In this document: in pieces, positions 27,936 through 53,644 of the stretch
Layout of the letters: each line of letters opens with the position of its first letter
Numbering within the stretch: position 1 is the first letter of the stretch
Origin: an uncultured Pelagibacteraceae bacterium
Lineage (GTDB): Bacteria > Pseudomonadota > Alphaproteobacteria > Pelagibacterales > Pelagibacteraceae
Direction of reading: 5' to 3'
Assembly: GCA_902613855.1 (NCBI GenBank)
Contig: CACMIX010000001.1
Span: forward strand, 288,717 to 352,716
Length of the DNA: 64,000 nucleotides
The notes under the pieces: model-generated
Databases searched by the model: none
Seen by the model: the letters and a program-made list of their open reading frames with translations, nothing else
What the model was told of the DNA's origin: nothing
Translations under genes and position numbers: made by a program

Positions 27936-29231
27936 ATGTTTTTACATACAAAATTAGAAAATAGAAAAGATCCTATAAAAATTTGTTTTATCGGATGTGG
28001 AAAATTTGTAAGTATGTTTTTGGCTCAATACAATCATCTAGAAAAAATTCAAATAGATTCCATAGTTGATATTAATGTTGATCAAGCAAAGAAAAATTGT
28101 TTGAAAAGTGGATTAAATGAACAAGTAGTTAAACAAATAAATTTTTCAAATTCTTTAGAGGAAGTTCTTGATAGAGATATCGAAATTTTTATTGAGGCAA
28201 CAGGCAACCCAATAGTTGGAACTGTACATGCAACAAAGATTATAAAAAGTAAGAAAAATATTATATTAGTCAATGTTGAAGCGGATATAACTTGTGGTAA
28301 ATATTTATCTGATCTTGCAAAAGAAAAAGGTGTTATCTGTTCGATGGCTTATGGCGATCAACCATCTTTAATTCTAGAACAAATAGAGTGGGCAAGATTA
28401 AACGGATTTTCAATAGTTTGTGCTGGTAAAGGAACAAAATATCATCCAACTTTTGAATATTCTACACCTGACACTGTTTGGGGTCACTATGGCCTAACTA
28501 AAGAGCGAGCTGAAAATGAATCTGGAATGAACCCCAAAATGTTTAATAGTTTTTTATGTGGAGACAAGTCTGCAATTGAAATGTGCGCTGTGAGTAATGC
28601 AGCTAACTTAAACTGCCCTAGTAATGGATTAACATTTCCTCCGGTTGGTGTTTACGATATTGCAAAAAAAATGATCCCAAAAAATGATGGTGGTCTAATT
28701 GAATTTGATGGTCAAGTTGAAGTTATTTCAAGTATAGATTTAGAAAAAAAAGATATTCCAAATGATTTAAGATGGGGTGTTTATATTGTTATTAAAGCAC
28801 AGAACGAATATGTAAAAAATTGTTTTAAAGATTACGGCATGGTTACAGACGCATCTGGAAACTATTCTGCTATTTGGAGACCCTATCATTATATTGGACT
28901 AGAGCTTGCACAGACAGTTTACTCAATAGCTCTAGACAATAGAGCAACAGGCTATACAAAAAATTATAATGCTGATGTTGCAAGTTTAGCGAAGAAAGAT
29001 TTAAAAGTTGGTGAAAAACTGGATGGAGAAGGAGGCTTCTGTGCTAGAGGGCGGTTAGTTACATCTCAAAAATCTAAAAAAGAAATGATCTTACCTCTAG
29101 GTCTTACTGATAATGCTGTATTAAAAAGAGATATAAGTAAGGATGAAGTTATTAGACTTGATGATGTCGAGTTAAATCTTCCAACTGAAGTGATCGAAGC
29201 AAGAAACTACCAATATAATTTATTAAATTAG
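27936..29231 (+). CDS. NAD(P)-binding oxidoreductase with SAF domain (COG4091-type 'predicted homoserine dehydrogenase')
   Basis: 431 aa. N-terminal Rossmann GxGxxG (FIGCGKFV). Overall similarity recalled to the COG4091 family; the substrate is unknown. Confidence 0.5.
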   Translation: MFLHTKLENRKDPIKICFIGCGKFVSMFLAQYNHLEKIQIDSIVDINVDQAKKNCLKSGLNEQVVKQINFSNSLEEVLDRDIEIFIEATGNPIVGTVHATKIIKSKKNIILVNVEADITCGKYLSDLAKEKGVICSMAYGDQPSLILEQIEWARLNGFSIVCAGKGTKYHPTFEYSTPDTVWGHYGLTKERAENESGMNPKMFNSFLCGDKSAIEMCAVSNAANLNCPSNGLTFPPVGVYDIAKKMIPKNDGGLIEFDGQVEVISSIDLEKKDIPNDLRWGVYIVIKAQNEYVKNCFKDYGMVTDASGNYSAIWRPYHYIGLELAQTVYSIALDNRATGYTKNYNADVASLAKKDLKVGEKLDGEGGFCARGRLVTSQKSKKEMILPLGLTDNAVLKRDISKDEVIRLDDVELNLPTEVIEARNYQYNLLN

Positions 29232-30499
29232 TTATATTTCTTTTCCATTACTAAATCTAAAAATAAAGAAGCGGTCCAAGAGAAGTTACTTGCTCCAAAT
29301 GCTTTTCCAGTTTTAAAACTGTAGTATTCAAAAAAGCCATTTTTTTTAATTAGATTAATTGTTTTTTCCTTAATTTTATTAGCAAAGTTTTTATCTTTAT
29401 TTTTTAACCCTTGATAGATAATCCAATTACAATTTATCCAAACAGGACCTCTCCAGTAACGCTTTTCCTCAAACTTTTTATGATTAGGCTTAATACTAGA
29501 AAATATGTATTTCTTTGTATGGTTATGATTTTTTAAATTTTTAATTATTTTTTTATTAATAGTTTGATTTTTTAAGTCAGCAAATAAAATAAAATAATTT
29601 GTAATTGATGGTACAATAATTTTTTTTTTATTTCTTATATCATAATTTGTAAAAACTCCTTTTTTCTCATTATATAATTTTTCAATCTGATTTTCTGATT
29701 TTAAAATAAATTTTTTTAATTTATTGTGCTCTAAATTGAATGATTTAAGTAATTCTAATAAATCTTTATTTGCTCTCAAAAATATAGAGTTAAAACCTAC
29801 ATCAACAACATTAAACATTGATTTATTATAAAGTTTTTTTGGATTATATTTATTTTTTCTAAGATGATTTTTAATTGTTACGTATCTATCATAATCTGCA
29901 TCTAAGGGTCTGTATTCTGGATTTATAACTTTATTATCCCCTCGTTTATATTTCAAATTTTTTTCAACTTTAACTTCATTCATAGAATAGTCCCAAAGTG
30001 GAGAATTATCATATCCACTTTCCCAAGGATGCAATATTGAAACTAGACCAGTATTTTTTGGGTCTCTATATTTAATTAACCATTCATGATATTTTTTCAA
30101 TTTTTGAACTATTGATTTAATTTTTACTTTATCTAAAATTTCTATTTTATTTTTGTCTAAAATTTTCTTTAAAATAATTGCAAGAACTGGAGGTTGAGTT
30201 ATTCCTGATGAATGTATCTTGTTTCCACAATTCCATACTGAATGATTTGGATAATAATTTGTTTTTAAATCATGGAATAAGATATGAGGTATCATACCAT
30301 CTTTCCATTGACCCCTTAAAAGTGTTGTTATTTCATCAAGTGCATACTTTAAATTAAAGTATGAGTATCCGAGGGAAATAAAGCCAGAGTCCCATTTCCA
30401 TTGTGCCGGATACAATTTGTTATTTGTAGGTAATGTGTAGCCTTTCTTTTTATTCCCTAACAAAACTTTCTTTGCTTCTTCTATTAATTTATTTCTCAA
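29228..30499 (-). CDS. GH63-like (alpha/alpha)6-barrel glycoside hydrolase; candidate glucosyl-/mannosylglycerate hydrolase
   Basis: 423 aa. Motifs HPWESGYDNSPLWD, RYWRGPVWINCNW and FFEYYSFKTGKAFGASNFSWTASLFLDL resemble MGH/GH63-type enzymes. Overlaps the upstream permease gene by 4 nt. Confidence 0.55.
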   Translation of the reverse strand: MRNKLIEEAKKVLLGNKKKGYTLPTNNKLYPAQWKWDSGFISLGYSYFNLKYALDEITTLLRGQWKDGMIPHILFHDLKTNYYPNHSVWNCGNKIHSSGITQPPVLAIILKKILDKNKIEILDKVKIKSIVQKLKKYHEWLIKYRDPKNTGLVSILHPWESGYDNSPLWDYSMNEVKVEKNLKYKRGDNKVINPEYRPLDADYDRYVTIKNHLRKNKYNPKKLYNKSMFNVVDVGFNSIFLRANKDLLELLKSFNLEHNKLKKFILKSENQIEKLYNEKKGVFTNYDIRNKKKIIVPSITNYFILFADLKNQTINKKIIKNLKNHNHTKKYIFSSIKPNHKKFEEKRYWRGPVWINCNWIIYQGLKNKDKNFANKIKEKTINLIKKNGFFEYYSFKTGKAFGASNFSWTASLFLDLVMEKKYN

Positions 30500-31689
30500 C
30501 CTTTGACACTCCCTGCAGTAAGACCACTAACTAGATATTTTTCAAAATAAACAAAAATAAATAGAACAGGCAAAGTTACAATAACTGATCCAGCCATTAA
30601 ATATTGTCTAGGTGTTTCTGCATCACCACTTAAATATTGTATGGCTCTTGAAAGAGTAAAAGAATTAGGGTTATCTAGAAACATTAAAGAAAATAAAAAT
30701 TCATTCCAAGCTATCATAAATACATATAAAGCCACAGAAGAAATTGCAGGAATACTTAATGGAATTATAATTTTAGAAATTATTCCAAACCAACTAAGTT
30801 TGTCTAATATTGCTGCCTCTTCTAATTCCTTTGGGATACTTTTGAAGTATCCTTGAAGCATGTAGATAGCTACTGGAAGCGTTGTAGCTGTATAAACAAT
30901 TAATAATCCTTCTATAGAGTTTCTGAGGCCTAATTGACTAAAAATTGTATATAAAGGAATTACTAAAACTATCGCTGGAAACATATAAATTATTAATATT
31001 GATGTTGACATAAATGTTTTTCCAAAAAAGTTTAATCGAGCAATTGCATATGCTGCTGGAATTGCAAAAAGAAGAGTTATGATCACAGTTCCTACAGATA
31101 CAATAGTGCTGGTTAAAATATATTTACCAAATTTATAAGATTTAAAGATTACAAAATAGGAATTAAATAAGTCCTTCAAATCTTGGCCAAAATTAATACT
31201 AAAATCTAAGGGGTTAACTAATAAAGCAATTTGAGTTTTAAAACTTGTTATTAACATCATGTAAAAAGGAAAAAGAATTACAAACGAAAAAAATAAAATA
31301 CCAAATAAAGTTAAAAAATCAAAAAAAATTACTTGAGTAGAATGTTCCTGCTTTAAATCTTCAAAACTGTATTTATTTATTTTATTAACAAAAAAATATA
31401 AAACTAAAAAAATACCAATATTGTACCATAAGGGTAACTTTTGAATAATATAACCATCACAAATTACAAAAATTAAAGAAAAAATAATTGATTTATAAAA
31501 AATTTTAATTTTATTGCCTACTCTTAAGTGAGCAAAAGATATTAGAAGACCAAAAATAAAAATTATTTGTAAATTAAAGTTTTGAATATCCAACCCTTGC
31601 AAAGTTGCTAATATTTTCCATATGGAAACTAAGAAAACCAAAAAAAATGAAGATATTAATGGAAATAAAATTAAATTTTTAGTTTTCAT
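30496..31689 (-). CDS. carbohydrate ABC transporter permease (MalG/CUT1 type) with an extra ~105-aa N-terminal membrane extension
   Basis: The C-terminal ~290 aa has the canonical 6-TM permease and EAA loop (ELEEAAILDKLSWFG). The first ~105 aa contain about four additional hydrophobic segments. Confidence 0.85.
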   Translation of the reverse strand: MKTKNLILFPLISSFFLVFLVSIWKILATLQGLDIQNFNLQIIFIFGLLISFAHLRVGNKIKIFYKSIIFSLIFVICDGYIIQKLPLWYNIGIFLVLYFFVNKINKYSFEDLKQEHSTQVIFFDFLTLFGILFFSFVILFPFYMMLITSFKTQIALLVNPLDFSINFGQDLKDLFNSYFVIFKSYKFGKYILTSTIVSVGTVIITLLFAIPAAYAIARLNFFGKTFMSTSILIIYMFPAIVLVIPLYTIFSQLGLRNSIEGLLIVYTATTLPVAIYMLQGYFKSIPKELEEAAILDKLSWFGIISKIIIPLSIPAISSVALYVFMIAWNEFLFSLMFLDNPNSFTLSRAIQYLSGDAETPRQYLMAGSVIVTLPVLFIFVYFEKYLVSGLTAGSVKG

Positions 31690-32938
31690 CCACCCTCTTT
31701 CCTAAAAGTTTGAAGTAAAAAAACATAAACAACAAAAGTAAAACTACAATAACTATTGAAACAGCAGATCCCATTCCTATATCAGATACAGCAAAACCTT
31801 GTTGATAAACATTAATTGGTAAAGTTCTGGTACCTGAGGCACCACCAGTAAGTAGGAAAACATCCTCAAACTTATTAAAATTCCAAATAAATCTTATCAT
31901 AAATAGAATTGATATAACGGCTGTAATTTGAGGAAGTGTTATTTTAAAAAACTTTTGAAATGGACTTGCTCCATCAACATCTGCTGCTTCATATAGTTCT
32001 TTTGGAATAGCCTGAAGTCTTGCAAGAATAAATAAAAAAGCTAAAGGAAAATATCTCCAAATTTCAAACATAATTACTGTTGTAAGAGCTAGTCTTAGTT
32101 TAAAATCGAACCCTAAAATATTTATTGTAATATATTTTTGCCCTAGCAAATTGATTGGTGTCTCTATAACCTGATAATTGATTAACAAGCTATTTAGTGT
32201 CCCGCTATTTGGATCTAATAGAAGTTCCCAAGTGTAAGCTAAAGCCACAACTGGAGCAACATAGGGAAAAAGTAAAACACTCCGCATAAAAGTTCTTCCA
32301 TAAAATTTTTGATTAACCATTTGAGCTGTTAAAATACCAAAGATAATTGATCCAACTGTACCAAAAAATGTGTAGTAAAAAGTTGTGAGAAGCAGGTCTA
32401 TAAATTCATCATCAAACAAAACTTTTTTAAAATTTTTTAAAGTAAAAGTGGCATTAAGCAATATATTATCAGAAGTTCCATCTAATTTAGGTTTAGTTGA
32501 TTTAAGGACTTTTTTATTTATTATTGAGCCGTCATTTGTTTCGAAAACTACTGTAAAATTTTCTCTATATTTTGCAGGCCAATTGCCAAATTTACACTTT
32601 AAAGTATATTTTTTGTAATCACATCTTGTGTCTAGCTCTTCAATCTCAAAATTTTTTGGGAATTTATCTTGAAATGAAACATCTCTGATTTCTTGAAGTA
32701 AAGAGCTATTTCTTAATTTATATAAAATTTTTATTTTTGAGGGATCTTCTGAAATGGATTTAACAATTTTTTTTGCCCTAGGTTCTGGAATTCTAATATC
32801 TTTTAATTCAACTTCCTTAAAACTAATCCAAACATTTGCAAAAATAGGAAATAAAATTATTGCAAAAACTAAAGCAACTGCAGGTAAAGTTAAAATATAT
32901 GCAGTCTTCTTTTCGGTATTTGCTAAAGTATCTTTCAT
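31679..32938 (-). CDS. carbohydrate ABC transporter permease (MalF/CUT1 type) with a large loop after TM1
   Basis: 419 aa. EAA loop ELYEAADVDGASPFQKF. There is a ~130-aa hydrophilic insertion between the first and second hydrophobic segments. Confidence 0.85.
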   Translation of the reverse strand: MKDTLANTEKKTAYILTLPAVALVFAIILFPIFANVWISFKEVELKDIRIPEPRAKKIVKSISEDPSKIKILYKLRNSSLLQEIRDVSFQDKFPKNFEIEELDTRCDYKKYTLKCKFGNWPAKYRENFTVVFETNDGSIINKKVLKSTKPKLDGTSDNILLNATFTLKNFKKVLFDDEFIDLLLTTFYYTFFGTVGSIIFGILTAQMVNQKFYGRTFMRSVLLFPYVAPVVALAYTWELLLDPNSGTLNSLLINYQVIETPINLLGQKYITINILGFDFKLRLALTTVIMFEIWRYFPLAFLFILARLQAIPKELYEAADVDGASPFQKFFKITLPQITAVISILFMIRFIWNFNKFEDVFLLTGGASGTRTLPINVYQQGFAVSDIGMGSAVSIVIVVLLLLFMFFYFKLLGKRVDEN

Positions 32939-32988
32939 AAAAAAAGCGGATAAGTAATCTTATCCGCTTTTTTAATTAATTTAAATTA

Positions 32989-34317
32989 CTAGAATTTAGT
33001 TAGTGCTTTGTTAATCATATCAACAGCCTCATCTACATCAATTTGGTCATCAATATAAAGTCTAGTGATTCTATTTATAAATTGAGAGTTAATTACTTTT
33101 GATGCTCTAGATAGTTCACCTTCTTTAACTCCCCATCTATTCGCAGTGTCTAATCCGGCAACGATATTATTTATAACATCTGGATCATAAAGATCTGACA
33201 AAGGAGCTTTTCTATCAACACCAACCGGTAGTTTACTCCAAGCTTTTGTAAATGCCTCTGGATCACTGGCATTTCCTCTTCTCACTGGAAATTTACCTTC
33301 TGGAGCAATAGATAAAGTACTTGTATATCCTTCATCCATTGAATACATGATAAATTGTTTTGCCTCATCAGTATCAGCATCAGCTGTTATACCAAAGTAT
33401 CTAACATCTGCCCATGCTGCGCCTTTTTTATTACTAGGTCCACTAAAATTTGTTATGAAACCAGTTTTAGATGCTAGTTCAGGTGATGTTGGATCACTAT
33501 TTATTGTTGGTGGAGCTGAGTCTCTTAAACCTGCTAGCTCATCCATAATAAATGGAGACCAAATAATCATTGGAGTTTTTCCAGCAAAATAAAGTGCTCT
33601 AGATTGTTTCCAATAAAGTTCACCTGGAGGACTAGCTTTTGCTATAATTTTATAAAACTCTAATGCCTCTTTTAACTTTTTGCCTTGTTTTTTTATTCCA
33701 CCTTTTTTAACAATATTAACTCCATTAGCTAAAAGAACATGTTCTAGAACCTGACTCATAAAATTTTCATCAGTCTTAGTTGCTGCTACAAATCCAAACA
33801 TACCATTTGTTTTTGATAGTTTTTCAACAGCAGCGACGATGTTAGCATAACTTGTTGGTGGTTCTAGTTCAGCGTTGTCAAAAAGATCTTTTCTATAAAC
33901 AACCATTTGCGTCCATCCATCAACTGGAACAGCTGCAATTTTTGATCCTGACTTAGCCATGTTTAGAGCACCTGGAGCAAAAGTATCTTTACCAAGTTCT
34001 TTTACAACAGCGTTATTTGCATCAACATCTAAAATTCCAGCTTCTGCCCAAGGTAATACATATTGTAAAGTGTGATAAATCACATCTGGTAAATCACCTG
34101 CTGCCGCAGCAGCAGTTGCTCTTGTACCTAATTCCTTTTCCTCAATTGGAATTACATCAACCTTAATACCTGTCTTAGCCTCAAAAGCTTTGGCCATTTC
34201 CTCTTGCTTAGCCATTCGAGCAGGTTGGACTTCCGTTGTCCAAAATTTAATATCTGCATAAACAACACTTGTAATGAATAATGATATTATGCAAAATATT
34301 TTTATTATATTTTTCAT
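32989..34317 (-). CDS. ABC transporter extracellular solute-binding protein, family 1 (sugar)
   Basis: 442 aa with an N-terminal signal peptide (MKNIIKIFCIISLFITSVVYA) and an SBP_bac_1-like sequence. Its codon and amino-acid composition is visibly less Lys/Asn-biased than its neighbours. Confidence 0.85.
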   Translation of the reverse strand: MKNIIKIFCIISLFITSVVYADIKFWTTEVQPARMAKQEEMAKAFEAKTGIKVDVIPIEEKELGTRATAAAAAGDLPDVIYHTLQYVLPWAEAGILDVDANNAVVKELGKDTFAPGALNMAKSGSKIAAVPVDGWTQMVVYRKDLFDNAELEPPTSYANIVAAVEKLSKTNGMFGFVAATKTDENFMSQVLEHVLLANGVNIVKKGGIKKQGKKLKEALEFYKIIAKASPPGELYWKQSRALYFAGKTPMIIWSPFIMDELAGLRDSAPPTINSDPTSPELASKTGFITNFSGPSNKKGAAWADVRYFGITADADTDEAKQFIMYSMDEGYTSTLSIAPEGKFPVRRGNASDPEAFTKAWSKLPVGVDRKAPLSDLYDPDVINNIVAGLDTANRWGVKEGELSRASKVINSQFINRITRLYIDDQIDVDEAVDMINKALTKF

Positions 34318-34368
34318 TTCTCCTCCTAGGATTTTTTTTCTAAAAAATTACAATATTTAGTAGTTTGT

Positions 34369-34382
34369 ATCAAATATTTGAT
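34369..34382. promoter_or_regulatory. perfect 14-bp palindrome ATCAAATATTTGAT upstream of the SBP gene; candidate operator
   Basis: Read directly. It is centred about 58 nt upstream of the SBP start codon (34317, minus strand) in a 133-nt spacer. Confidence 0.25.
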
Positions 34383-34450
34383 TAAATTTTATTAATAAAA
34401 ATTATTAGTTATTTTCGTAAAAAATTAAATTCTAACAATTTAAAGTTGTA

Positions 34451-35506
34451 TTAAAGTTTTATTCTAATTTGATTTTTATCGAAAATTAATAAATCTTTAT
34501 AATTAAAACCAATTGTATCTGTAATTGTAACGTTACTTGGAATTTTTGCACTTAACTGTTTTTTATCTTTTTTTATGTAAACAATTTTTTCATTACCAAG
34601 ATTTTCAATTAACTCTACTTCTGGATTAAAAGTAAAATCACTTTTATCGTTAACTTTTAAATGTTCAGGTCTAATTCCAACATAATGTTTTGTTTTCTCA
34701 AATTTAATATTTTTAAAATTAATTTCTAAACCTAATAATTTGAATGTATTTTCAGAAATAATATTTTTCTCACTAATTTCTAGTATATTCATCTTTGGAG
34801 TCCCAATAAACTGAGCTACAAAAACATTAGATGGATCATTATATATTTCCTCTGGTGTTCCTATTTGCTCAATATTTCCTCTATTAAGTATTACTATTCT
34901 GTCAGCTAAAGTCATAGCCTCAACTTGATCATGTGTAACATAAATCATATTAGTCTTAATTTGATTATGTAACTTTGATATTTCAACTCTCATTTCAGCT
35001 CTTAATGCTGCATCTAAATTAGATAATGGTTCATCAAAGAGAAATATCTTTGGATTTCTAGTTATAGCTCTCCCGATTGCAACTCTTTGTCTTTGTCCAC
35101 CAGATAATTCTTTTGGTCGTCTATCTAAAAGATCTTCTATTTTTAAAATTTTTGCAGCCTCAGTTACTTTTGACAAAATCTCTTCTTTTGGTCTTTTCTC
35201 TATTTTTAATCCAAAAGACATATTTTCAAATACATTCATGTGTGGATAAAGGGCGTACGATTGAAATACCATAGCTGTTTGACGTTTTGAGGGGTGAAGC
35301 TCGTTTATCTTTTGATCATTAATAAATATTTCTCCCTCATCAATTTTCTCAAGTCCAGCAATCATTCTTAATAATGTTGATTTACCACATCCTGACGGCC
35401 CAACTAAAACAAGAAATTCATCTTCTTTACCCTTTAAATTGAAATCTGAAATTATTTTATTTGAACCAAAGGATTTATGAACTCCTTTAAATTTTATATT
35501 TGCCAT
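34451..35506 (-). CDS. sugar ABC transporter ATP-binding protein (MalK/UgpC type)
   Basis: Walker A GPSGCGKST, signature LSGGQRQR, Walker B IFLFDEPLS, and a C-terminal TOBE-like regulatory domain. 351 aa. Confidence 0.92.
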   Translation of the reverse strand: MANIKFKGVHKSFGSNKIISDFNLKGKEDEFLVLVGPSGCGKSTLLRMIAGLEKIDEGEIFINDQKINELHPSKRQTAMVFQSYALYPHMNVFENMSFGLKIEKRPKEEILSKVTEAAKILKIEDLLDRRPKELSGGQRQRVAIGRAITRNPKIFLFDEPLSNLDAALRAEMRVEISKLHNQIKTNMIYVTHDQVEAMTLADRIVILNRGNIEQIGTPEEIYNDPSNVFVAQFIGTPKMNILEISEKNIISENTFKLLGLEINFKNIKFEKTKHYVGIRPEHLKVNDKSDFTFNPEVELIENLGNEKIVYIKKDKKQLSAKIPSNVTITDTIGFNYKDLLIFDKNQIRIKL

Positions 35507-35604
35507 CTCTAATATTAATTAGTTAATAGAACTTAATTAACTTATTTTAATAAATTAAGTATATCAATTAGAAAAAATTTTTTGGAATTTATTAATTAGC
35601 AAAA

Positions 35605-36825
35605 TTAAAGATACTGTTTATTATCTTCATTTACAGCTTTTTCTAACCTGATTAAAAAATCGGGAATTGCACTTTTCACTCTACTCCAAGTAGGTATGAA
35701 AGGTGCATCCATTGGGTTTAAATAAAAATCCTCTCCAGCTCTAATTATATTACTTGAAAACAATTCAACTGCTTTTTCTTCAGTATGAGAGTCAAATTTT
35801 AGACCATTCATTTCAGCATCAGCTCTGTAAGCATCTATTAAATCTAAAGCAGATCTGTAATATGTTGCTTTCAAAGACCTTAGTTGCTCTCTGCTGAAGG
35901 AATGACCTTGAGTTGCTAATTTTTTGATAAAGGTTTTAATAATATCTATAGACATTCTTGATAAACCTTTTTTTTCATTATCTAGAGATAAATCTTGGTG
36001 TTTATGGTCATAAGTATCAGCTAAATCTACTTGGCAAATATTTTGAGGTGAAAAATTTCTTTGCATTTCTGATAATATTCCAATCTCTATACCCCAGTCA
36101 GATGAAATTCTAAGTTCTGGTAAAATATTTCTCCTAAAAGAAAATTCGCCAGCCAATGGGTATTTAAATGATTTCATAAAATCTAAATAGTCACTTTTGC
36201 CAATAGTTTTTTCTAAAGCATTCAATAAAGGAAACACTAATAGTCTTGCTACACGTCCATTCATCTTGTTGTCAGCTACTCTTGGATAAAAGCCTTTACA
36301 AAATTCAAAATTAAACAGTGGGTTTACAACTGGATAAAATAGTTTTGCTAACATTCTTCTATCATAAGTTTTAATATCACAATCGTGTAATGCAACTGAT
36401 CTTGCACTATCTCTTGCAATAGACATTCCTATGCAATACCAAACATTTCTTCCTTTACCATGCTCACTTGGAGCTAATCCTTTTTTTTGTAACTCTTTAT
36501 CTAATTTTTTTAAATTAGGCCCATCATTCCAAAGGATTGTAAAAGGAGTTTCTAATTTTTCAAAAAAAGTCCAAGCTTTCCTTGCTTCAGACTCGCTTGC
36601 TTGATCTAAGCCTATGATTATATGATTTATGTAATTTGTTTTACTAATCTCTTTTACAATATTAGGCAATGCATCACCTTTTAATTCTGAATAAAGACAT
36701 GGCAGGATAAGTTCCATCTTCCTTTCTTTAGAAAAACCCAAAAGTTCCTTTTCTATTTGTTCTAAAGATTTTGTTCCAAAATCATGAAGAGTTGAAATTA
36801 TTCCATTTTGAGAAAAATCACTCAT
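35605..36825 (-). CDS. glucosyl-3-phosphoglycerate synthase-like glycosyltransferase (GpgS/MpgS type)
   Basis: 406 aa GT-A fold. GKGRNVWY and LHDCDI (DxD) motifs. Its length and its pairing with an MpgP-family phosphatase match the long GpgS type as I recall it. The sugar donor cannot be determined from sequence alone. Confidence 0.55.
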   Translation of the reverse strand: MSDFSQNGIISTLHDFGTKSLEQIEKELLGFSKERKMELILPCLYSELKGDALPNIVKEISKTNYINHIIIGLDQASESEARKAWTFFEKLETPFTILWNDGPNLKKLDKELQKKGLAPSEHGKGRNVWYCIGMSIARDSARSVALHDCDIKTYDRRMLAKLFYPVVNPLFNFEFCKGFYPRVADNKMNGRVARLLVFPLLNALEKTIGKSDYLDFMKSFKYPLAGEFSFRRNILPELRISSDWGIEIGILSEMQRNFSPQNICQVDLADTYDHKHQDLSLDNEKKGLSRMSIDIIKTFIKKLATQGHSFSREQLRSLKATYYRSALDLIDAYRADAEMNGLKFDSHTEEKAVELFSSNIIRAGEDFYLNPMDAPFIPTWSRVKSAIPDFLIRLEKAVNEDNKQYL

Positions 36826-36836
36826 AAAATATAGTA

Positions 36837-37640
36837 TTAATTATTATTTATTTTAACTAGGGCCATTTTGATCACATCTGCCCAGCCCTCAGGTGATGGC
36901 TTATTTGTTATTATTAAATCATTTATAGGGATTTGATCTAATGTAAATTTATCATTAAAAACTAAGCAAGGAAAATCACTAACTTTAAGCATATCTAAAT
37001 CATTGTAATTATCACCAACTGCTATTGTTTTTACATTTTTATTATTTTTTTTAAAAAATCTCACAAATACCTGAAGTGCTTTAGATTTATTTACTTTATC
37101 AGTTAAATTAATAACTCTCCCACCTTCTTGTAAATTTAAACCTTTATTTCTAACAATTTTAGATAATTCATTTCTTTCACTTTTGTTTCCCTCAAATATA
37201 AAAGGAATAGTGTATTTACGATCTAAAGCCAATTTTAATTGTTCATTTTCTAAACCTAAAATTAAGCTTTGTTTCTTCTTGTTCATTTCAGACAACCATT
37301 TACATTTATTTTGTAAATCTATTGGCACCAACTTTTCAAAAATTTTTATAAGATTATCTTTTTCTCTGCTTAAAATTAATTCTTTAGGTAAATTAGAATT
37401 TAATAAATCTAAGCCATTTATAGCAGCACCATTTTCAGAGATGTAAGGTAAACTTTTACCTAATTCTTTGTTAAATACTAAAATTTCTTTTTCAGTTTTA
37501 CTTGTGTTGGGTATAATAAAAATTCCCTTAGATATTAATTGTTTTATATAGTCTTTTATTTTATCAAATTTGAAAGTATCTCTATGAAGAAGTGAGCCAT
37601 CAAGATCTGTAAATATCAAAACTTTGAATACTTTTTCCAT
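36837..37640 (-). CDS. HAD-IIB phosphatase of the mannosyl-/glucosyl-3-phosphoglycerate phosphatase (MpgP/YedP) family
   Basis: 267 aa. Motif I FTDLDGSLL, motif II PNTSKT, motif III GDNYNDLDML, with a cap domain between motifs II and III. Confidence 0.65.
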   Translation of the reverse strand: MEKVFKVLIFTDLDGSLLHRDTFKFDKIKDYIKQLISKGIFIIPNTSKTEKEILVFNKELGKSLPYISENGAAINGLDLLNSNLPKELILSREKDNLIKIFEKLVPIDLQNKCKWLSEMNKKKQSLILGLENEQLKLALDRKYTIPFIFEGNKSERNELSKIVRNKGLNLQEGGRVINLTDKVNKSKALQVFVRFFKKNNKNVKTIAVGDNYNDLDMLKVSDFPCLVFNDKFTLDQIPINDLIITNKPSPEGWADVIKMALVKINNN

Positions 37641-37876: not shown

Positions 37877-39595
37877 ATGAAGTATATATTAGGTATTAAA
37901 TATGGTGGACATGACACATCAGCAGCCTTACTTTTCAATGGAAAACTTATAGCCGCTTGTTCTCAAGAAAGATACACAAGAGATAAACACAGCAGATTAT
38001 TTCCTAAAGATGCGGTAATGGATTGTTTAAAAATTGGAAAAATAGATATTAATCAAATTAATGAAATAGCTTTTGTTAATGATTTAAAATCAATGACTAG
38101 AGAGATTTATCTTAAACCAGCTATTCAAAGTGATGAAAGATTAGATTTTTTAATTAAAGACATTGATAAAATTAAAAGAATGAACAATATGGATCAGATC
38201 ATAAGAAATAATTTAAATTATAAAGGTACTATAAAATATTATAGGCATCATCTATGTCATGTAGCAAGCGCATATTACCCTAGTGGATTTAAAAATGCTT
38301 TGTGTTTAAGTATTGATGGAGTCGGAGAATATGAAACTGGAATTATAGCATCTGGTAAATTAGGCAAAATTAAAACACTGAATAATGAAAATAAGTACCC
38401 TCATTCCTTAGGATTATTATATTCAGCAATAACATATTACCTAGGTTGGAAACATCATTGTGATGAAGGAATCATCATGGGATTAGCTCCTTACGGAAAT
38501 TCATCAAAAAAAATTCCAGGATTTAAAAAGACATATCTACAAGTTTTTAGAGAAATACTTACTAATAAAGGAAATTTTCAATATAAGATAAATTTAGATT
38601 ATATAGATTATTACTCAGAAAGAGATAAATGGGTTACCGATAAATTCATTAAGATTTTTGGACCAAAAAGAAAATACGAGGAACCATTAACAAATCATCA
38701 TAAGAATATTGCTGCAGCCTTACAGGATCAATTGGAAAGTGTTGTTTTAAAACAATTAAAAATTGCAAGAAAAAAATTCAAATTTAATAAATTATGCTTG
38801 GCTGGAGGGGTGGCATTAAACTGTTCTTTAAATGGAAAAATAGCAAAAAGTAAAATATTCAAAGAAATATTTATACAACCTGCAAGTGGAGATGATGGTT
38901 GTGCTTATGGTGCAACTTTACTTGCATATACTTCATCAAAAAAAAAAATGATACCAAAAAGAATGCATAATTTCTATAAAGGATCATGTTTCACAAATAA
39001 AGAAATAGAGTCGGAACTTAAAAAGAAAAAATTAAATTACGTTCGTCCTAAAAATTTATATCATGAAGTTTCAAAACATTTGAAGGATGGAAAAATTATA
39101 GGTTGGTTTCAAGGTGGGGCTGAATTTGGACCACGAGCTTTAGGAAATAGATCAATATTATGTAAACCATATCCAAAACAAATGAAAGACCATCTAAATA
39201 TTAGAGTTAAATTTAGAGAGGAATTTAGACCATTTGCACCATCTGTTTTGAATGAATATAGGGAAGATTTTTTCCATATAAATCAAGATAGCCCACATAT
39301 GCTTATGGCATGCAAAATTAAAAAAAATAAGATGAAAGATGTTCCAGCAATAGTTCATATTGATGGGACATGTAGAGTTCAAACAGTTAAAAAAGAAATT
39401 AATGAGAAATTTTATAATTTAATTAAAGAATTCAACCATTTGACAAAGATACCAGTATTATTAAACACTTCTTTTAATGTCAAAGGCCAGCCTATTGTCA
39501 ATACTCCATCAGAAGCTATAGAAACTTTTAAAGCTACTAAAATAGATGTCTTAGCTGTAGGAGATTTTTTATTAACTAAAAAAAGTAATGTCTGA
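37877..39595 (+). CDS. carbamoyltransferase, NodU/CmcH family
   Basis: 572 aa. N-terminal ASKHA/Kae1-like ILGIKYGGHDTSAALL, HHLCHVASAY, and C-terminal carbamoyltransferase domain (FGPRALGNRSIL, NTSFN). Confidence 0.85.
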   Translation: MKYILGIKYGGHDTSAALLFNGKLIAACSQERYTRDKHSRLFPKDAVMDCLKIGKIDINQINEIAFVNDLKSMTREIYLKPAIQSDERLDFLIKDIDKIKRMNNMDQIIRNNLNYKGTIKYYRHHLCHVASAYYPSGFKNALCLSIDGVGEYETGIIASGKLGKIKTLNNENKYPHSLGLLYSAITYYLGWKHHCDEGIIMGLAPYGNSSKKIPGFKKTYLQVFREILTNKGNFQYKINLDYIDYYSERDKWVTDKFIKIFGPKRKYEEPLTNHHKNIAAALQDQLESVVLKQLKIARKKFKFNKLCLAGGVALNCSLNGKIAKSKIFKEIFIQPASGDDGCAYGATLLAYTSSKKKMIPKRMHNFYKGSCFTNKEIESELKKKKLNYVRPKNLYHEVSKHLKDGKIIGWFQGGAEFGPRALGNRSILCKPYPKQMKDHLNIRVKFREEFRPFAPSVLNEYREDFFHINQDSPHMLMACKIKKNKMKDVPAIVHIDGTCRVQTVKKEINEKFYNLIKEFNHLTKIPVLLNTSFNVKGQPIVNTPSEAIETFKATKIDVLAVGDFLLTKKSNV

Positions 39596-40946
39596 GAGAC
39601 TATCAACTCAAATTTCTAAATATTTTGATCGCCTATGGCCTTTGAATAGATCAATCACAGGACAAGGTGTAAGAAAAACTCATAAAATTTTAAAAGAAAT
39701 AATTCCTTTTAAAACTCTTGAAATTCCATCTGGTCTAAAAGTACATGATTGGAAGGTACCAAAAGAATGGATAATTAAAGATGCATATATTTTAACTCCC
39801 GAAGGTAAAAAAATTTGTGACATGAAAGAAAACAATTTGCATGTTCTAAATTATTCATCTCCAGTAAATAAGACAGTTTCACTTAAAGAACTACAAAAAC
39901 ATTTATTTAGCATTAAAGAAATTCCAAATGCTATTCCTTATTTAACAAGTTATTATGGTAAAAACTGGGGATTTTGTATTCAGGATAATATAAGAAAAAA
40001 ATTAAAACCAGGAAAATATAAAGTTTTAATTAAATCAAAATTTATAAATGGATCTCTTACTATTTCCGAAAAAATTCTAAAAGGAAAAAGTAAAAAAGAA
40101 ATTTTATTTACAACATACACCTGCCATCCATCATTGGCTAACAATGAGTTAAGTGGTCCTTTAGTTCAGTCTTTTTTATATAAAAAAATATTATCTATGA
40201 AAAATAGATATTTTACATACCGTTTTGTTTTTCACCCTGAAACAATTGGATCAATCGCATACCTGGCTAAAAAAGGTAAATATTTAAAAAAAAATGTTTT
40301 TGGAGCATATAATCTGACATGTCTGGGTTTAAAAAATAGTAAAATTACATATAAAAAATCAAAAATAGGTAACAGTTTATCCGATTTTGTAGCTCTAGAA
40401 ATAATGAAAAATATTAATAAAAAAAAAATTGAAGTATTGGATTTTTTTCCAACAGGAAGTGATGAAAGGCAGTATTGTTCACCAGGTTATAATTTACCAA
40501 TGGGTGTTTTTATGAGAGGTGTTCCTGGTACTTACAAAGAGTACCATACATCACTAGACAATAAAAAGATTTTATCAAACAAAGTTTTAATTGAAATGAT
40601 TAATATTTATTATCGAATAATTAAATATTTTGAAAAAAATAAAAATGAATTATTTGAAAAAAAAATTAAAGTTATAAAAAATAATTATAACAAGAAAGGT
40701 CAATTTTATTTAAATCTTAAACCTTATTGTGAACCTCACTTCAGCAAAATAAATTTACAGAGCACAATAGGAGGTAAAAGAAAACAAATAAGAGATTTGA
40801 AAGCAATAAAATGGTTACTTTCATATTCAGATGGAGAAAATAGCATCAAAACAATTTCAAAAAAAAGTGGTATAAAATTAAAAATTTTAAAATTCAATGC
40901 AAATTTATGTTGTAAAAAAAAACTTTTAAAAAAAATTGATTATTAA
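39588..40946 (+). CDS. DUF4910/COG4310 protein with aminopeptidase-like (M28-fold) domain
   Basis: 452 aa. Motifs W.LNRSITG, HPSLANNELSG, FHPETIGSIAYL and GSDERQY are typical, as I recall, of this family, which is found in glycan-biosynthesis loci. Overlaps the carbamoyltransferase stop by 8 nt. Confidence 0.6.
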   Translation: MSERLSTQISKYFDRLWPLNRSITGQGVRKTHKILKEIIPFKTLEIPSGLKVHDWKVPKEWIIKDAYILTPEGKKICDMKENNLHVLNYSSPVNKTVSLKELQKHLFSIKEIPNAIPYLTSYYGKNWGFCIQDNIRKKLKPGKYKVLIKSKFINGSLTISEKILKGKSKKEILFTTYTCHPSLANNELSGPLVQSFLYKKILSMKNRYFTYRFVFHPETIGSIAYLAKKGKYLKKNVFGAYNLTCLGLKNSKITYKKSKIGNSLSDFVALEIMKNINKKKIEVLDFFPTGSDERQYCSPGYNLPMGVFMRGVPGTYKEYHTSLDNKKILSNKVLIEMINIYYRIIKYFEKNKNELFEKKIKVIKNNYNKKGQFYLNLKPYCEPHFSKINLQSTIGGKRKQIRDLKAIKWLLSYSDGENSIKTISKKSGIKLKILKFNANLCCKKKLLKKIDY

Positions 40947-52500: not shown

Positions 52501-53644
52501 AGCAGGTCAAATTTTATCTGGAACATCATTAGGTAAAAAAGTTAAAGATTTATCCGAAGGTACAAAACTAGACTTTGAGGCCATAAGCAATCTTCCTATT
52601 AATGATGTTTTCAAAATTTCAAATGGAAATGCAGCAAATGAAACAACTCTTTTACAATTAAAAGACCAGTACAATAAAGCCAAGCAAGATATTACCGAAA
52701 GGTTTGAGGATAAAGTTCTTAAAATCAGAAGTGGAGACGACTTACTCCCAAGCGTAATGAAAATGGTAAAAGTTTTTGTCGCAATTAAAAGAAGATTAAG
52801 ACCAGGTGATAAAATGTCTGGAAGACATGGAAACAAAGGTGTAGTTAGTAAAATTGTTCCAGTAGAAGATATGCCTTACCGTGAAGATGGCAGACCAGTT
52901 GATATTGTTCTTAATCCCTTAGGTGTACCTAGTAGGATGAATGTAGGTCAAATTTTAGAAACTCACCTAGGTTGGGCTTGCAAAGAATTTGGGGAAGAAG
53001 TTAAGAAATTAGTAAATGAGAACAGTAAAAAAATTGAAAAAACTGAGAAAATTGCAAGTTTTTTAAAATCTGTTTATGGAGAAGAAATTTTTAACGATAA
53101 GGTTGATAAATTAAGTAAAAATGAATTTAAGGATTTGTGTGAAAATTTACAAAACGGAATAGCAATCTCAACTCCAGTATTTGATGGAGCTAAAGAAAAA
53201 AATGTTACCGAAATGCTTGAATTAGCAAAATTACCAGGTTCTGGTCAAACATATTTATGGGATGGAAGAACAGGTGAGAAATTTGATAGACCAGTAACAG
53301 TTGGAATTATTTATATGTTAAAACTTCATCATTTAGTTGAAGATAAAATACATGCAAGATCAACAGGACCTTACAGTTTGGTTACACAACAACCCCTTGG
53401 AGGTAAAGCTCAACTTGGTGGTCAAAGATTTGGTGAAATGGAAGTTTGGGCACTGGAGGCTTATGGAGCTTCATACACTCTTCAAGAAATTTTGACCGTT
53501 AAGTCTGATGACGTAGCTGGTAGAGTTAAAGTTTACGAGACAATCGTTAAAGGTGAGGAGAACTTTGAGTCAGGTATTCCAGAGTCCTTTAACGTATTGG
53601 TAAAAGAAATTAAATCATTAGCATTAAACGTGGAGCTTAATTAA
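49556..53644 (+). CDS. rpoB: DNA-directed RNA polymerase subunit beta
   Basis: 1362 aa with conserved regions including [34 protein letters not shown] and [13 protein letters not shown]. Confidence 0.99.

What the first reader, a model, noticed from the sequence alone, without database searches (positions are those of the whole stretch)
29228..37640. Co-directional locus combining glycosylglycerate synthesis, a sugar ABC importer and a GH63-like hydrolase
**Gene order.** Seven minus-strand genes lie in transcription order:
1. MpgP/YedP-family HAD-IIB phosphatase.
2. GpgS/MpgS-like GT-A glycosyltransferase (GKGRNVW, DCD motifs).
3. MalK/UgpC-type ATPase.
4. Family-1 solute-binding protein.
5. 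MalF-type permease.
6. MalG-type permease.
7. GH63-like (alpha/alpha)6 hydrolase, overlapping the last permease by 4 nt.

**Interpretation**
- Established biochemistry links a GpgS/MpgS plus GpgP/MpgP pair to the compatible solutes glucosylglycerate and mannosylglycerate. GH63-type MgH/GgH enzymes hydrolyse these solutes.
- Synthesis, high-affinity uptake and hydrolysis in one compact locus is unusual for a streamlined oligotroph with few sugar transporters.
- Hypothesis: the cell both makes a nitrogen-free, negatively charged osmolyte and scavenges it. Marine picocyanobacteria are known glucosylglycerate producers. Hydrolysis would release hexose plus glycerate.
- No regulator gene is present in the locus.
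Basis: partly seen in the sequence, partly recalled or inferred. Interest (0 to 1): 0.7.

Follow-up and report, generated by a model that had tools for sequence, protein, structure and literature searches.

The report
SAR11 glucosylglycerate make, import, hydrolyse locus
In this SAR11 (Pelagibacter) genome, genes for making the nitrogen-free osmolyte glucosylglycerate have been joined to a portable importer-plus-hydrolase cassette that is widespread in SAR11 and other marine Alphaproteobacteria; that cassette probably lets these cells take up and eat glucosylglycerate released by picocyanobacteria.

Summary
Seven minus-strand genes sit at the stated coordinates, and HMMs support every family label: an MPGP-family phosphatase, a Methanococcoides-type GpgS, a UgpC/MalK ATPase, a family-1 SBP, two permeases, and an MGH/GgH-type GH63 that keeps all catalytic and glycerate-binding residues.

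Comparative genomics reframes the locus as a fusion of two modules that are usually separate.
- Module 1 is gpgP-gpgS. In 50 of 68 informative SAR11 metagenome contigs it is followed by a YcjM-like glucosylglycerate (GG) phosphorylase, and in 3 by GH63.
- Module 2 is ATPase-SBP-permease-permease-GH63. It stands alone in 57 of 80 SAR11 species genomes.
- Only 4 of those 80 repeat the window's fusion.

The transporter pairs with one of two unrelated GG-cleaving enzymes (GH63 or GGaP) in SAR11 and in five other marine Alphaproteobacteria. Those five also carry a LacI-type regulator, and two carry a glycerate kinase. The SBP belongs, by sequence and by predicted structure, to the orphan YcjN group; E. 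coli ycjN lies next to the GG phosphorylase gene ycjM.

Best reading: a GG importer feeding a cytoplasmic GG hydrolase, fused here to GG synthesis. All substrates are inferred, none was tested. GG synthesis genes in offshore SAR11 were already noted in 2025; I found no paper describing the uptake cassette.

The parts
36837..37640 (-). gpgP: HAD-IIB glucosyl/mannosyl-3-phosphoglycerate phosphatase (267 aa)
   Evidence: TIGR01486 (MPGP family) scores 167.1 bits against a cut-off of 164.75; Pfam Hydrolase_3. The best PDB hit is P. horikoshii MPGP, E 1.9e-16. It lies directly upstream of gpgS in nearly all 80 metagenome loci.
35605..36825 (-). gpgS: retaining GT-A glucosyl-3-phosphoglycerate synthase, Methanococcoides/GT81-like (406 aa)
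   Evidence: NF040724 GpgS_Meth aligns over residues 3-405 at 366 bits, E 2.7e-109, which is below the equivalog cut-off of 700. The only PDB hits are R. xylanophilus MpgS and mycobacterial GpgS; the GKG, DxD (HDCDI), GE and HxH-Q motifs are aligned. In 50 of 68 informative SAR11 contigs it is followed by a GG phosphorylase.
34451..35506 (-). UgpC/MalK-type ABC ATPase (351 aa)
   Evidence: NF008653 UgpC scores 461.7 bits against a cut-off of 432; Pfam ABC_tran plus a weak TOBE_2 hit. It precedes the SBP in most stand-alone cassettes and is absent from three of the four window-like loci.
32989..34317 (-). Periplasmic solute-binding protein, YcjN group (442 aa); predicted glucosylglycerate binder
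   Evidence: SBP_bac_1 and SBP_bac_8. The sequence has an N-terminal signal-like segment and an AGGAGG ribosome-binding site. The best PDB sequence hits are 8ula, 7v09 and 8vqk (YcjN), E about 1e-21 to 1e-23; 8HQQ (the SAR11 glucose SBP) is not hit. The AlphaFold2 model has pLDDT 94.4; the top Foldseek hits are the same three at E about 1e-26, with the next group near 1e-18. The ligand is inferred from gene neighbourhoods only.
32940..32973 (-). Perfect palindromic hairpin flanked by A and T runs, between the SBP gene and the first permease gene (terminator/attenuator-like)
   Evidence: AAAAAGCGGATAAG-ATTA-CTTATCCGCTTTTTTT, ending just before the permease ATG. That it raises SBP transcript levels relative to the permeases is inference.
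31679..32938 (-). MalF/UgpA/YcjO-like permease with a periplasmic insert of about 125 aa (419 aa)
   Evidence: BPD_transp_1. It is 34% identical to E. coli YcjO, E 5e-42. Long forms of 411-434 aa are conserved in the other Alphaproteobacteria.
30496..31689 (-). MalG/YcjP-like permease with an N-terminal extension of about 120 aa (397 aa)
   Evidence: BPD_transp_1. It is 37% identical to E. coli YcjP, E 5e-52. It overlaps the permF gene by 11 nt and the GH63 gene by 4 nt.
29228..30499 (-). Cytoplasmic GH63 glucosyl/mannosyl-glycerate hydrolase (423 aa)
   Evidence: PF22422 MGH1-like scores 295 bits; NF047898 GluglyHdase scores 317.5 bits (below its cut-off of 550). Thermus MgH 2z07 E 5e-93, about 37% identity; M. 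hassiacum GgH E 1e-58. The catalytic pair D164/E391 and residues Y30, W34, W36, D37, H72, Y82, Q102, W159, G162, R197, Y203, Y348, W349, W354 and W408 are all conserved. There is no signal peptide.

Best explanation
The locus joins two functional modules for the compatible solute 2-O-alpha-D-glucosylglycerate (GG).

Synthesis module. GpgS transfers glucose from an NDP-glucose to 3-phosphoglycerate. GpgP removes the phosphate and gives GG.

Salvage/catabolic module. A periplasmic YcjN-type binding protein captures external GG. The two permeases and the UgpC-type ATPase import it. The cytoplasmic inverting GH63 hydrolase splits it into glucose and D-glycerate.

The salvage module is a portable cassette that stands alone in most SAR11 genomes that carry it. 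Its primary role is therefore probably scavenging GG released by picocyanobacteria and other producers. In this genome the cassette's transporter genes sit between gpgS and GH63, so the same cell can make GG, recapture or scavenge it, and cash it in.

Shown here: gene order, family membership, conserved active-site residues and cross-genome linkage.
Inferred: every substrate, the direction of flux, and how futile cycling is avoided without a local regulator.
For: 1. Enzyme families. All MhGgH catalytic, sugar-contacting and glycerate-contacting residues are conserved in the GH63 (residue list from PMC6608630).

2. The transporter is linked to GH63 in 61 of 73 informative SAR11 species genomes: 57 stand-alone cassettes and 4 fused to gpgPS.

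3. Two non-homologous GG-cleaving enzymes alternate at the transporter.
- In L136 a GH13 replaces GH63 at the end of the transporter operon.
- In 11 'variant B' genomes ATPase-gpgP-gpgS-GH13 is divergent from SBP-permease-permease.
- This GH13 is 33% identical over its full length to E. coli YcjM, annotated as GG phosphorylase (E 2e-121). It carries the TETN motif that PMC7178133 gives as diagnostic of GG phosphorylases.

4. The same holds outside SAR11. Thalassospira, Ruegeria, Maritalea and Limimaricola have LacI-SBP-permF-permG-GH63-ATPase. A glycerate kinase is adjacent in two of them. Paroceanicella has a YcjM-like GH13 (43% identity, E 2e-164, TETN) in place of GH63. In Streptomyces parvulus a 36%-identical SBP lies next to an MGH-like GH63.

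5. The SBP and permeases are closest to E. coli YcjN/O/P, whose genes lie directly after ycjM.

6. gpgS is followed by GGaP in 50 of 68 informative SAR11 contigs. GGaP is described as strict for GG, which favours glucose over mannose.

7. The backbone without the transporter exists (L009: gpgP-gpgS-GH63-DRL-GGACT). The window is a mosaic: its transporter genes are 89-96% identical to HIMB2250-type cassettes, whose GH63 is only about 69% identical.
Against: - No binding, transport or enzyme assay exists for any of these proteins.
- The GpgS and GgH HMM scores are below the NCBIfam equivalog cut-offs (366 against 700; 317 against 550).
- The closest structurally characterised hydrolase, Thermus MgH, is named for mannosylglycerate, and characterised GH63 enzymes of this type accept both MG and GG.
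- The ligand of YcjN is unknown. It did not respond to the sugars tested, and GG was not among them (PMC11543891).
- Distant SBP relatives sit in other contexts, such as glucoamylase in Halomarina. Substrate inference therefore holds only for the close subfamily.
- No glycerate kinase is encoded in the 64-kb window.
- Synthesis and hydrolysis in one unregulated locus raise an unexplained futile-cycle problem.
Confidence: 0.7

Rival explanations
1. The system is specific for mannosylglycerate (for example digeneaside from red algae) rather than glucosylglycerate. On this reading the GT is an MpgS-like enzyme, the SBP binds MG and the GH63 is an MgH.
For: The best solved homologue of the hydrolase is Thermus MgH (E 5e-93, against 1e-58 for the mycobacterial GgH). 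The best PDB hit of the GT is the R. xylanophilus enzyme deposited as MpgS. The phosphatase family is named for mannosyl-3-phosphoglycerate.
Against: - The only full-length HMM match of the GT is the GpgS model.
- A YcjM-type phosphorylase, described as strict for GG (PMC7178133), follows gpgS in 50 of 68 contigs. It also substitutes for GH63 at the transporter.
- The MPGP family includes GpgP enzymes.
- Characterised MgH/GgH enzymes act on both substrates (PMC6608630).
Confidence: 0.12
2. The transporter imports some other alpha-glucoside or sugar (kojibiose, sucrose, trehalose, glucosylglycerol or glucose). Its position next to GG genes is then incidental to a hypervariable region.
For: - CUT1 SBP specificity cannot be read from sequence.
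- The E. coli ycj cluster also encodes kojibiose and 3-keto-glucoside enzymes.
- The junction after gpgS is an insertion hotspot: L105 carries unrelated genes there.
- Distant SBP relatives have other neighbours.
Against: - The transporter is paired with a GG-cleaving enzyme in at least three independent arrangements in SAR11 and in 5 of 5 other Alphaproteobacteria, two of which also have a glycerate kinase.
- The translationally coupled GH63 keeps the glycerate-binding residues. The homologous MhGgH does not hydrolyse glucosylglycerol or glucosylglycolate (PMC6608630).
- The SBP is unrelated to the SAR11 glucose binder.
Confidence: 0.1
3. In this genome the transporter serves mainly to recapture the cell's own leaked GG (osmolyte retention, as proposed for compatible-solute importers in cyanobacteria) and not to feed on external GG. 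GH63 would then only draw the pool down when osmotic or nitrogen stress ends.
For: Synthesis genes are fused to the transporter in this genome and in 15 of 80 species genomes. The gpgP-gpgS-GH63 backbone without a transporter exists, which parallels the mycobacterial accumulate-then-hydrolyse cycle (PMC6608630).
Against: - In 57 of 80 species genomes no gpgS lies within the flanks of the cassette (median 8.8 kb upstream).
- In other Alphaproteobacteria the cassette is a LacI-controlled catabolic operon with a glycerate kinase.
- The two roles are not mutually exclusive.
Confidence: 0.08

Closest known systems
E. coli ycjM-ycjNOP(-ycjV) segment of the ycj cluster
   Same: A GG-cleaving enzyme gene lies directly beside a CUT1 ABC importer. 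The SAR11 permeases are 34-37% identical to YcjO/P. The SBP is the closest sequence and structural relative of YcjN. Sister SAR11 loci carry a YcjM orthologue with the TETN motif.
   Different: - The window uses a GH63 hydrolase and not the GH13_18 phosphorylase.
- It lacks the kojibiose and 3-keto-glucoside genes, the porin and the LacI-type repressor.
- Its permeases are about 120 aa longer.
- It is fused to the GG synthesis genes.
- The YcjN ligand is itself unknown (PMC11543891).
Mycobacterial GpgS / GpgP / GgH system (M. hassiacum, M. tuberculosis)
   Same: The chemistry is the same: GT81-type GpgS, a phosphatase, and a GH63 GgH with identical catalytic and substrate-binding residues. The role is also similar, with accumulation under nitrogen limitation and hydrolysis on recovery (PMC6608630).
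   Different: - The mycobacterial genes are not joined to an importer.
- The SAR11 GpgS belongs to the Methanococcoides-type subfamily (406 aa).
- The SAR11 phosphatase is HAD-IIB. From memory, the mycobacterial GpgP is a histidine-phosphatase-type enzyme; I did not check this here.
Prochlorococcus glucosylglycerate metabolism operon with an adjacent transporter gene
   Same: GG synthesis, GG breakdown and a putative transporter are co-located in a streamlined marine oligotroph. External GG has been proposed as a carbon source there (PMC11631117).
   Different: As described in that paper, the cyanobacterial operon breaks GG down through GG phosphorylase and glycerate phosphorylation, and it has a single transporter gene. 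I did not compare the sequences here.
LacI-SBP-permF-permG-GH63-ATPase cassette of marine Alphaproteobacteria (Thalassospira, Ruegeria, Maritalea, Limimaricola)
   Same: The SBP is 63-68% identical, the permeases are similarly long, and a GgH-like GH63 sits inside the operon.
   Different: - Those cassettes have a LacI repressor, the ATPase comes last, and some have an adjacent glycerate kinase.
- The SAR11 versions lack the regulator and place the ATPase first.
- The GH63 genes in these records are annotated only as 'hypothetical protein'.

Membership tests
GpgS (glucosyl-3-phosphoglycerate synthase, GT81-like retaining GT-A) | Full-length match to a curated GpgS model at or above its cut-off | tested here: inconclusive
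   NF040724 aligns over residues 3-405, E 2.7e-109, 366 bits, but the equivalog cut-off is 700. The second GpgS model, NF010496, scores 75 bits.
GpgS (glucosyl-3-phosphoglycerate synthase, GT81-like retaining GT-A) | GT-A motifs shared with solved GpgS/MpgS enzymes (GKG loop, DxD, GE, and a C-terminal His motif) | tested here: met
   HGKGRNVW, HDCDI, LAGEF and DHKHQ align to the corresponding motifs of 3f1y and 7pdo.
GpgS (glucosyl-3-phosphoglycerate synthase, GT81-like retaining GT-A) | Uses an NDP-glucose donor with 3-phosphoglycerate as acceptor | not testable with these tools
   An enzyme assay is needed. The only support is indirect: a GG-specific phosphorylase follows gpgS in 50 of 68 contigs.
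MPGP/GpgP HAD-IIB phosphatase family (TIGR01486) | Score above the family's trusted cut-off over the full length | tested here: met
   167.1 bits against 164.75, covering residues 8-258 of 267.
GH63 mannosyl/glucosyl-glycerate hydrolase (MgH/GgH) | MGH1-like (alpha/alpha)6 catalytic domain | tested here: met
   PF22422 scores 295 bits against a cut-off of 27, with profile positions 1-356 of 356 matched.
GH63 mannosyl/glucosyl-glycerate hydrolase (MgH/GgH) | Catalytic Asp/Glu pair and the residues that contact the sugar and the glycerate (MhGgH D182, E419, Y36, W40, W42, D43, Y88, Q115, G180, R216, Y222, Y375, W376) | tested here: met
   All are conserved, as D164, E391, Y30, W34, W36, D37, Y82, Q102, G162, R197, Y203, Y348 and W349 (residue list from PMC6608630).
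GH63 mannosyl/glucosyl-glycerate hydrolase (MgH/GgH) | Curated GgH equivalog score | tested here: not met
   NF047898 scores 317.5 bits against a cut-off of 550. The protein is therefore not an equivalog of the mycobacterial enzyme. It is closer to Thermus MgH.
YcjN-group CUT1 solute-binding proteins | Closest sequence and structural neighbours are YcjN and its orthologues, clearly separated from MalE-type SBPs | tested here: met
   phmmer gives E 2e-21 to 2e-23 for 8vqk, 7v09 and 8ula, and 5e-9 or weaker for the rest. Foldseek gives about 1e-26 for the same three, with the next group near 1e-18; TM 0.79-0.87.
YcjN-group CUT1 solute-binding proteins | Gene lies next to a GH13_18 phosphorylase or another GG-cleaving enzyme | tested here: met
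   61 GH63-linked and 11 GGaP-linked loci among 80 SAR11 species genomes, and 5 of 5 other Alphaproteobacteria.
Glucosylglycerate phosphorylase (GH13_18 GGaP), for the GH13 of sister loci, which is not present in the window | (T/S)ETN motif and full-length similarity to a characterised GGaP | tested here: met
   TETN is present in the L001, L136 and Paroceanicella proteins. Identity to YcjM is 33% for L001 and 43% for Paroceanicella. A tblastn search of the window with this protein finds nothing.

The most novel reading that the evidence does not exclude
The YcjN-type binding protein and its permeases would be the first dedicated high-affinity glucosylglycerate importer. With the GH63 hydrolase it forms a portable cassette that lets many SAR11 lineages and other marine Alphaproteobacteria feed on GG made by Prochlorococcus and Synechococcus. 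That would make GG a significant, so far overlooked, nitrogen-free carbon currency of the oligotrophic ocean. It would also name the long-sought ligand of the orphan E. coli YcjN family.
Probability: 0.45. Interest if true: 0.7.

Novelty: new member of a known kind. Interest (0 to 1): 0.55.

Why it matters
SAR11 is the most abundant heterotroph in the surface ocean, and its known sugar uptake rests on a single glucose transporter studied in one strain. The cassette described here would be a second carbohydrate importer. It is present in at least 80 SAR11 species genomes, and its predicted substrate is a major osmolyte of the co-dominant picocyanobacteria. That gives a concrete, testable Prochlorococcus-to-SAR11 carbon link.

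Cultured carriers exist (HIMB2250, HIMB1444, HIMB1509, HIMB1495, HIMB1746, HIMB1748, HIMB1838), so binding, uptake and growth tests are feasible now.

The same prediction offers a candidate ligand (GG) for E. coli YcjN, whose substrate a 2024 structural study could not identify and did not test.

The fused version in this window also shows how streamlined genomes assemble make/recapture/consume units without a regulator.

Tried and rejected
- **Is the SBP the known SAR11 glucose binder?** I tested it against SAR11_0769 (8HQQ, PMC11485210). It is not among the PDB hits at E <= 0.01, so I rejected this.
- **Catalytic residue numbers.** The numbers I first recalled for the Thermus enzyme did not map to acidic residues. 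I replaced them with the published MhGgH list.
- **Genome scan outside SAR11.** Alignments A1 and A2 were too diverse for pattern extraction. A3 worked, but the best 80 loci were all SAR11. Non-SAR11 context therefore came from the annotated plasmid/chromid collection.
- **Promoter and terminator scan.** It was not enriched over shuffles: 50 promoter-like sites against 54 expected, and 3 terminator-like sites against 2.8. Only the SBP-permease hairpin is worth noting.
- **RNA elements.** Rfam finds no riboswitch or leader in the locus. An alignment of SBP upstream regions shows only a promoter-like box and the ribosome-binding site, with no conserved operator.
- **Variant-B 442-aa gene.** It is not a diverged GH63 and has no Pfam, NCBIfam or PDB match.
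- **Long SBP-family fusion proteins.** These are tandem SBPs or carry anchor domains, so they say nothing about substrate.
- **Literature.** The supplements of the two SAR11 papers held no usable detail. Franceus 2017 was not available.
- **Downstream genes.** A tblastn search found no glycerate kinase or GGaP in the window.

Full report
**Observation.** The window is about 30% G+C. It is contig CACPJV010000001.1 of a Pelagibacteraceae single-cell genome, GCA_902634205.1. In transcription order they are separated by gaps of 11, 98, 133 and 50 nt and then overlap by 11 and 4 nt. The last gene also overlaps, by 4 nt, a convergent DRL_cat/SAF oxidoreductase gene (27936-29231). No regulator gene lies in or beside the locus.

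**Family assignment.**
- Phosphatase: it passes the curated cut-off of the MPGP HAD-IIB family, TIGR01486 (167.1 against 164.75 bits). Its best solved relative is an archaeal mannosyl-3-phosphoglycerate phosphatase.
- Glycosyltransferase: it has no Pfam hit. It aligns end to end with the NCBIfam model for Methanococcoides-type GpgS (366 bits, E 2.7e-109), which is below the equivalog cut-off of 700. Its only PDB relatives are the R. xylanophilus MpgS and mycobacterial GpgS, with the GKG, DxD, GE and C-terminal His motifs aligned.
- Hydrolase: it matches the whole MGH1-like GH63 domain (295 bits). It is about 37% identical over 411 columns to Thermus TTHA0978/MgH (E 5e-93), and its match to M. 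hassiacum GgH has E 1e-58. I mapped the residues that Cereija et al. list as strictly conserved in all characterised MgH/GgH enzymes (PMC6608630) onto the window protein. Both catalytic residues (D164, E391) and every sugar- and glycerate-contacting residue are conserved. The protein has no signal peptide, so it acts in the cytoplasm.
- Transporter: a UgpC/MalK ATPase, a family-1 SBP, and MalF-like and MalG-like permeases.

**What the transporter is.** The only sugar SBP characterised in SAR11 is the glucose binder SAR11_0769 (PDB 8HQQ; PMC11485210). The window SBP does not hit it. Its best solved relatives are E. coli YcjN, the Enterobacter orthologue 7V09 and Listeria Lmo2839. An AlphaFold2 model built on 43 homologues is confident (pLDDT 94.4). 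Foldseek puts the same three structures about eight orders of magnitude in E-value ahead of all MalE-type proteins. The permeases are 34% and 37% identical to YcjO and YcjP. In E. coli, ycjNOP follow ycjM directly, and RefSeq annotates ycjM as glucosylglycerate phosphorylase. The ligand of YcjN is unknown, and GG was not among the compounds tested (PMC11543891).

**Locus variants in SAR11.**

*Around close GpgS relatives.* I fetched 80 marine-metagenome contigs and classified them by tblastn.
- Of 68 contigs with usable sequence downstream of gpgS, 50 have a 566-575 aa GH13 gene.
- 3 have GH63 directly after gpgS. These are the window's closest relatives (gpgS 96-98% identical), and they have no transporter in between.
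- 4 run straight into the backbone genes.
- None repeats the window's gpgS-to-ATPase junction.

The GH13 is 33% identical over its full length to YcjM (E 2e-121), far better than to any solved sucrose phosphorylase. It carries the TETN motif that the GH13_18 review gives as diagnostic of GG phosphorylases (PMC7178133). In about 12 of 60 informative contigs, and in L001-L004, the transporter lies upstream in a divergent arrangement: SBP-permF-permG in one direction and ATPase-gpgP-gpgS-GGaP in the other.

*Around the SBP.* I scanned one genome per species. The best 80 loci are all Pelagibacteraceae. They include the cultured isolates HIMB2250, HIMB1444, HIMB1746, HIMB1509, HIMB1748, HIMB1495 and HIMB1838. 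The classification is:

| Architecture | Loci |
|---|---|
| [ATPase]-SBP-permF-permG-GH63, no gpgS in the flanks (median 8.8 kb upstream) | 57 |
| Window-like, gpgP-gpgS upstream (three lack the ATPase; one has a 2.8-kb insert of unrelated genes after gpgS) | 4 |
| Divergent GGaP variant | 11 |
| L136: ATPase-SBP-permF-permG-GGaP, the phosphorylase in the place of GH63 | 1 |
| Truncated | 7 |

The stand-alone cassette sits in unrelated neighbourhoods in HIMB2250 and HIMB1509, so it behaves as a portable unit.

**Outside SAR11.** A tblastn search of annotated plasmids and chromids found five marine Alphaproteobacteria with a 63-68% identical SBP.
- Four (Thalassospira, Ruegeria, Maritalea, Limimaricola) have LacI-SBP-permF-permG-'hypothetical protein'-ATPase.
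- The hypothetical proteins are GgH-like GH63 enzymes (314-327 bits on NF047898; the Maritalea protein is 34% identical to the window enzyme).
- Maritalea has a glycerate 2-kinase directly after the ATPase. Limimaricola has a glycerate kinase beside the regulator.
- The fifth, Paroceanicella, lacks GH63. It has a divergently transcribed GH13 that is 43% identical to YcjM and carries TETN.
- In Streptomyces parvulus, a 36%-identical SBP lies next to an MGH-like GH63.
- A 28%-identical haloarchaeal homologue has different neighbours, so the inference weakens with distance.

**Interpretation.** The transporter is found with one or other of two unrelated enzymes whose shared substrate is GG. This holds in several independent gene arrangements and in several orders of bacteria, sometimes together with a glycerate kinase. 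That is the strongest available evidence that the transporter imports GG. Mannosylglycerate may be a secondary substrate.

The window is best read as a fusion. The backbone gpgP-gpgS-GH63-DRL-GGACT exists without the transporter (L009). The window's SBP, permF and permG are 96%, 92% and 89% identical to HIMB2250-type cassettes, whose GH63 is only about 69% identical. The window's GH63 is 78% identical to that of the transporter-less backbone. This points to a recombination junction near the permG/GH63 boundary. The direction of the event is not resolved.

**Expression signals.** Consensus promoter and terminator matches are not enriched over shuffles. One feature stands out: a perfect palindromic hairpin with flanking A and T runs at 32940-32973, between the SBP stop codon and the permease start codon. 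A strong AGGAGG ribosome-binding site precedes the SBP gene. Both fit the usual excess of binding protein over membrane components, but that is inference. A promoter-like box recurs about 50 nt upstream of the SBP gene in related loci, and no conserved operator is seen. Rfam finds nothing in the locus. The SAR11 cassettes lack the LacI-type regulator of their alphaproteobacterial relatives. How synthesis and hydrolysis are kept from cycling futilely is unexplained.

**What is known.**
- GpgS/GpgP, GgH/MgH and GGaP are established enzymes.
- A 2025 study notes that offshore SAR11 genera carry genes for GG synthesis (PMC12636525). It does not mention the transporter or the hydrolase.
- Prochlorococcus is reported to have a GG operon with an adjacent transporter, and GG has been suggested as an exchanged carbon source (PMC11631117).
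- Prochlorococcus is described as using GG and sucrose as its main osmolytes (PMC3686209).
- My searches of the held library found no description of a GG ABC importer or of this SAR11 cassette. A library miss is not proof of absence.

**Verdict.** I classify the locus as a new member of a known kind: a CUT1 importer with a glycoside hydrolase, joined to a known osmolyte pathway. Its predicted substrate is new for a transporter and ecologically relevant, and cultured strains are ready for testing. My confidence in the GG make/import/hydrolyse model is 0.7. The main uncertainty is that no substrate has been measured.

Noticed in passing
window 27936-29231 (+): A DRL_cat + SAF-domain NAD-dependent oxidoreductase (431 aa) is convergent with GH63 and overlaps it by 4 nt. 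It travels with the GH63-type GG locus (L008, L009, L012, L013 and all window-like loci). It is absent from the stand-alone cassettes and from the GGaP-type loci. Its substrate is unknown; a role in glycerate or glucose processing is conceivable but untested.
   Followed up: partly
L001:2804-4132 (-), and its homologues in L002, L003, L015 and L076: In the divergent GGaP variant, the gene after the permeases is not GH63. It encodes a 442-aa secreted protein with a signal peptide and an S-M-G-K (SxxK-like) motif, and it has no Pfam, NCBIfam or PDB match.
   Followed up: partly
L001:12951-15228 and many gpgS contigs (e.g. L026, L050, L065, L066): A proteasome-family (Anbu-like) gene and a CP_ATPgrasp gene flank the gpgP-gpgS-GGaP module in many SAR11 contigs. 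Their position relative to the module varies, which fits a flexible genomic region.
   Followed up: no
L105:6000-8688: In one window-like genome, 2.8 kb of unrelated genes (a methyltransferase, a 1-Cys peroxiredoxin and an FAD oxidoreductase) lie between gpgS and the transporter ATPase gene. The junction after gpgS is therefore an insertion hotspot.
   Followed up: yes
window 37877-40946 (+): A NodU-like carbamoyltransferase gene (572 aa) overlaps by 8 nt a DUF4910/DUF2172/HTH_47 gene (452 aa). The pair is divergent from gpgP. This left flank is not conserved in the other window-like loci.
   Followed up: no
window 40996-63701: This stretch holds five tRNA genes and an rpsL leader RNA (RF01823, 57879-57969). 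It also holds two large ORFs (49556-57823; 1362 and 1392 aa), which by size and position I take to be rpoB and rpoC; I did not annotate them. The GG locus thus lies about 10 kb from a core, conserved region.
   Followed up: no
P0122, P0142, P0253, P0246 (representative-library hits): Some members of the SBP family are long fusions: a tandem SBP, CarboxypepD_reg + SBP, Bmp + SBP, and SBP + Big_1. These may be surface-anchored binding proteins of organisms without a periplasm.
   Followed up: partly
L087, L102, L108: Three of the four window-like species genomes have gpgS followed directly by the SBP gene, with no ATPase gene in the locus. The transporter there must borrow a shared MalK/UgpC-type ATPase encoded elsewhere.
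   Followed up: no
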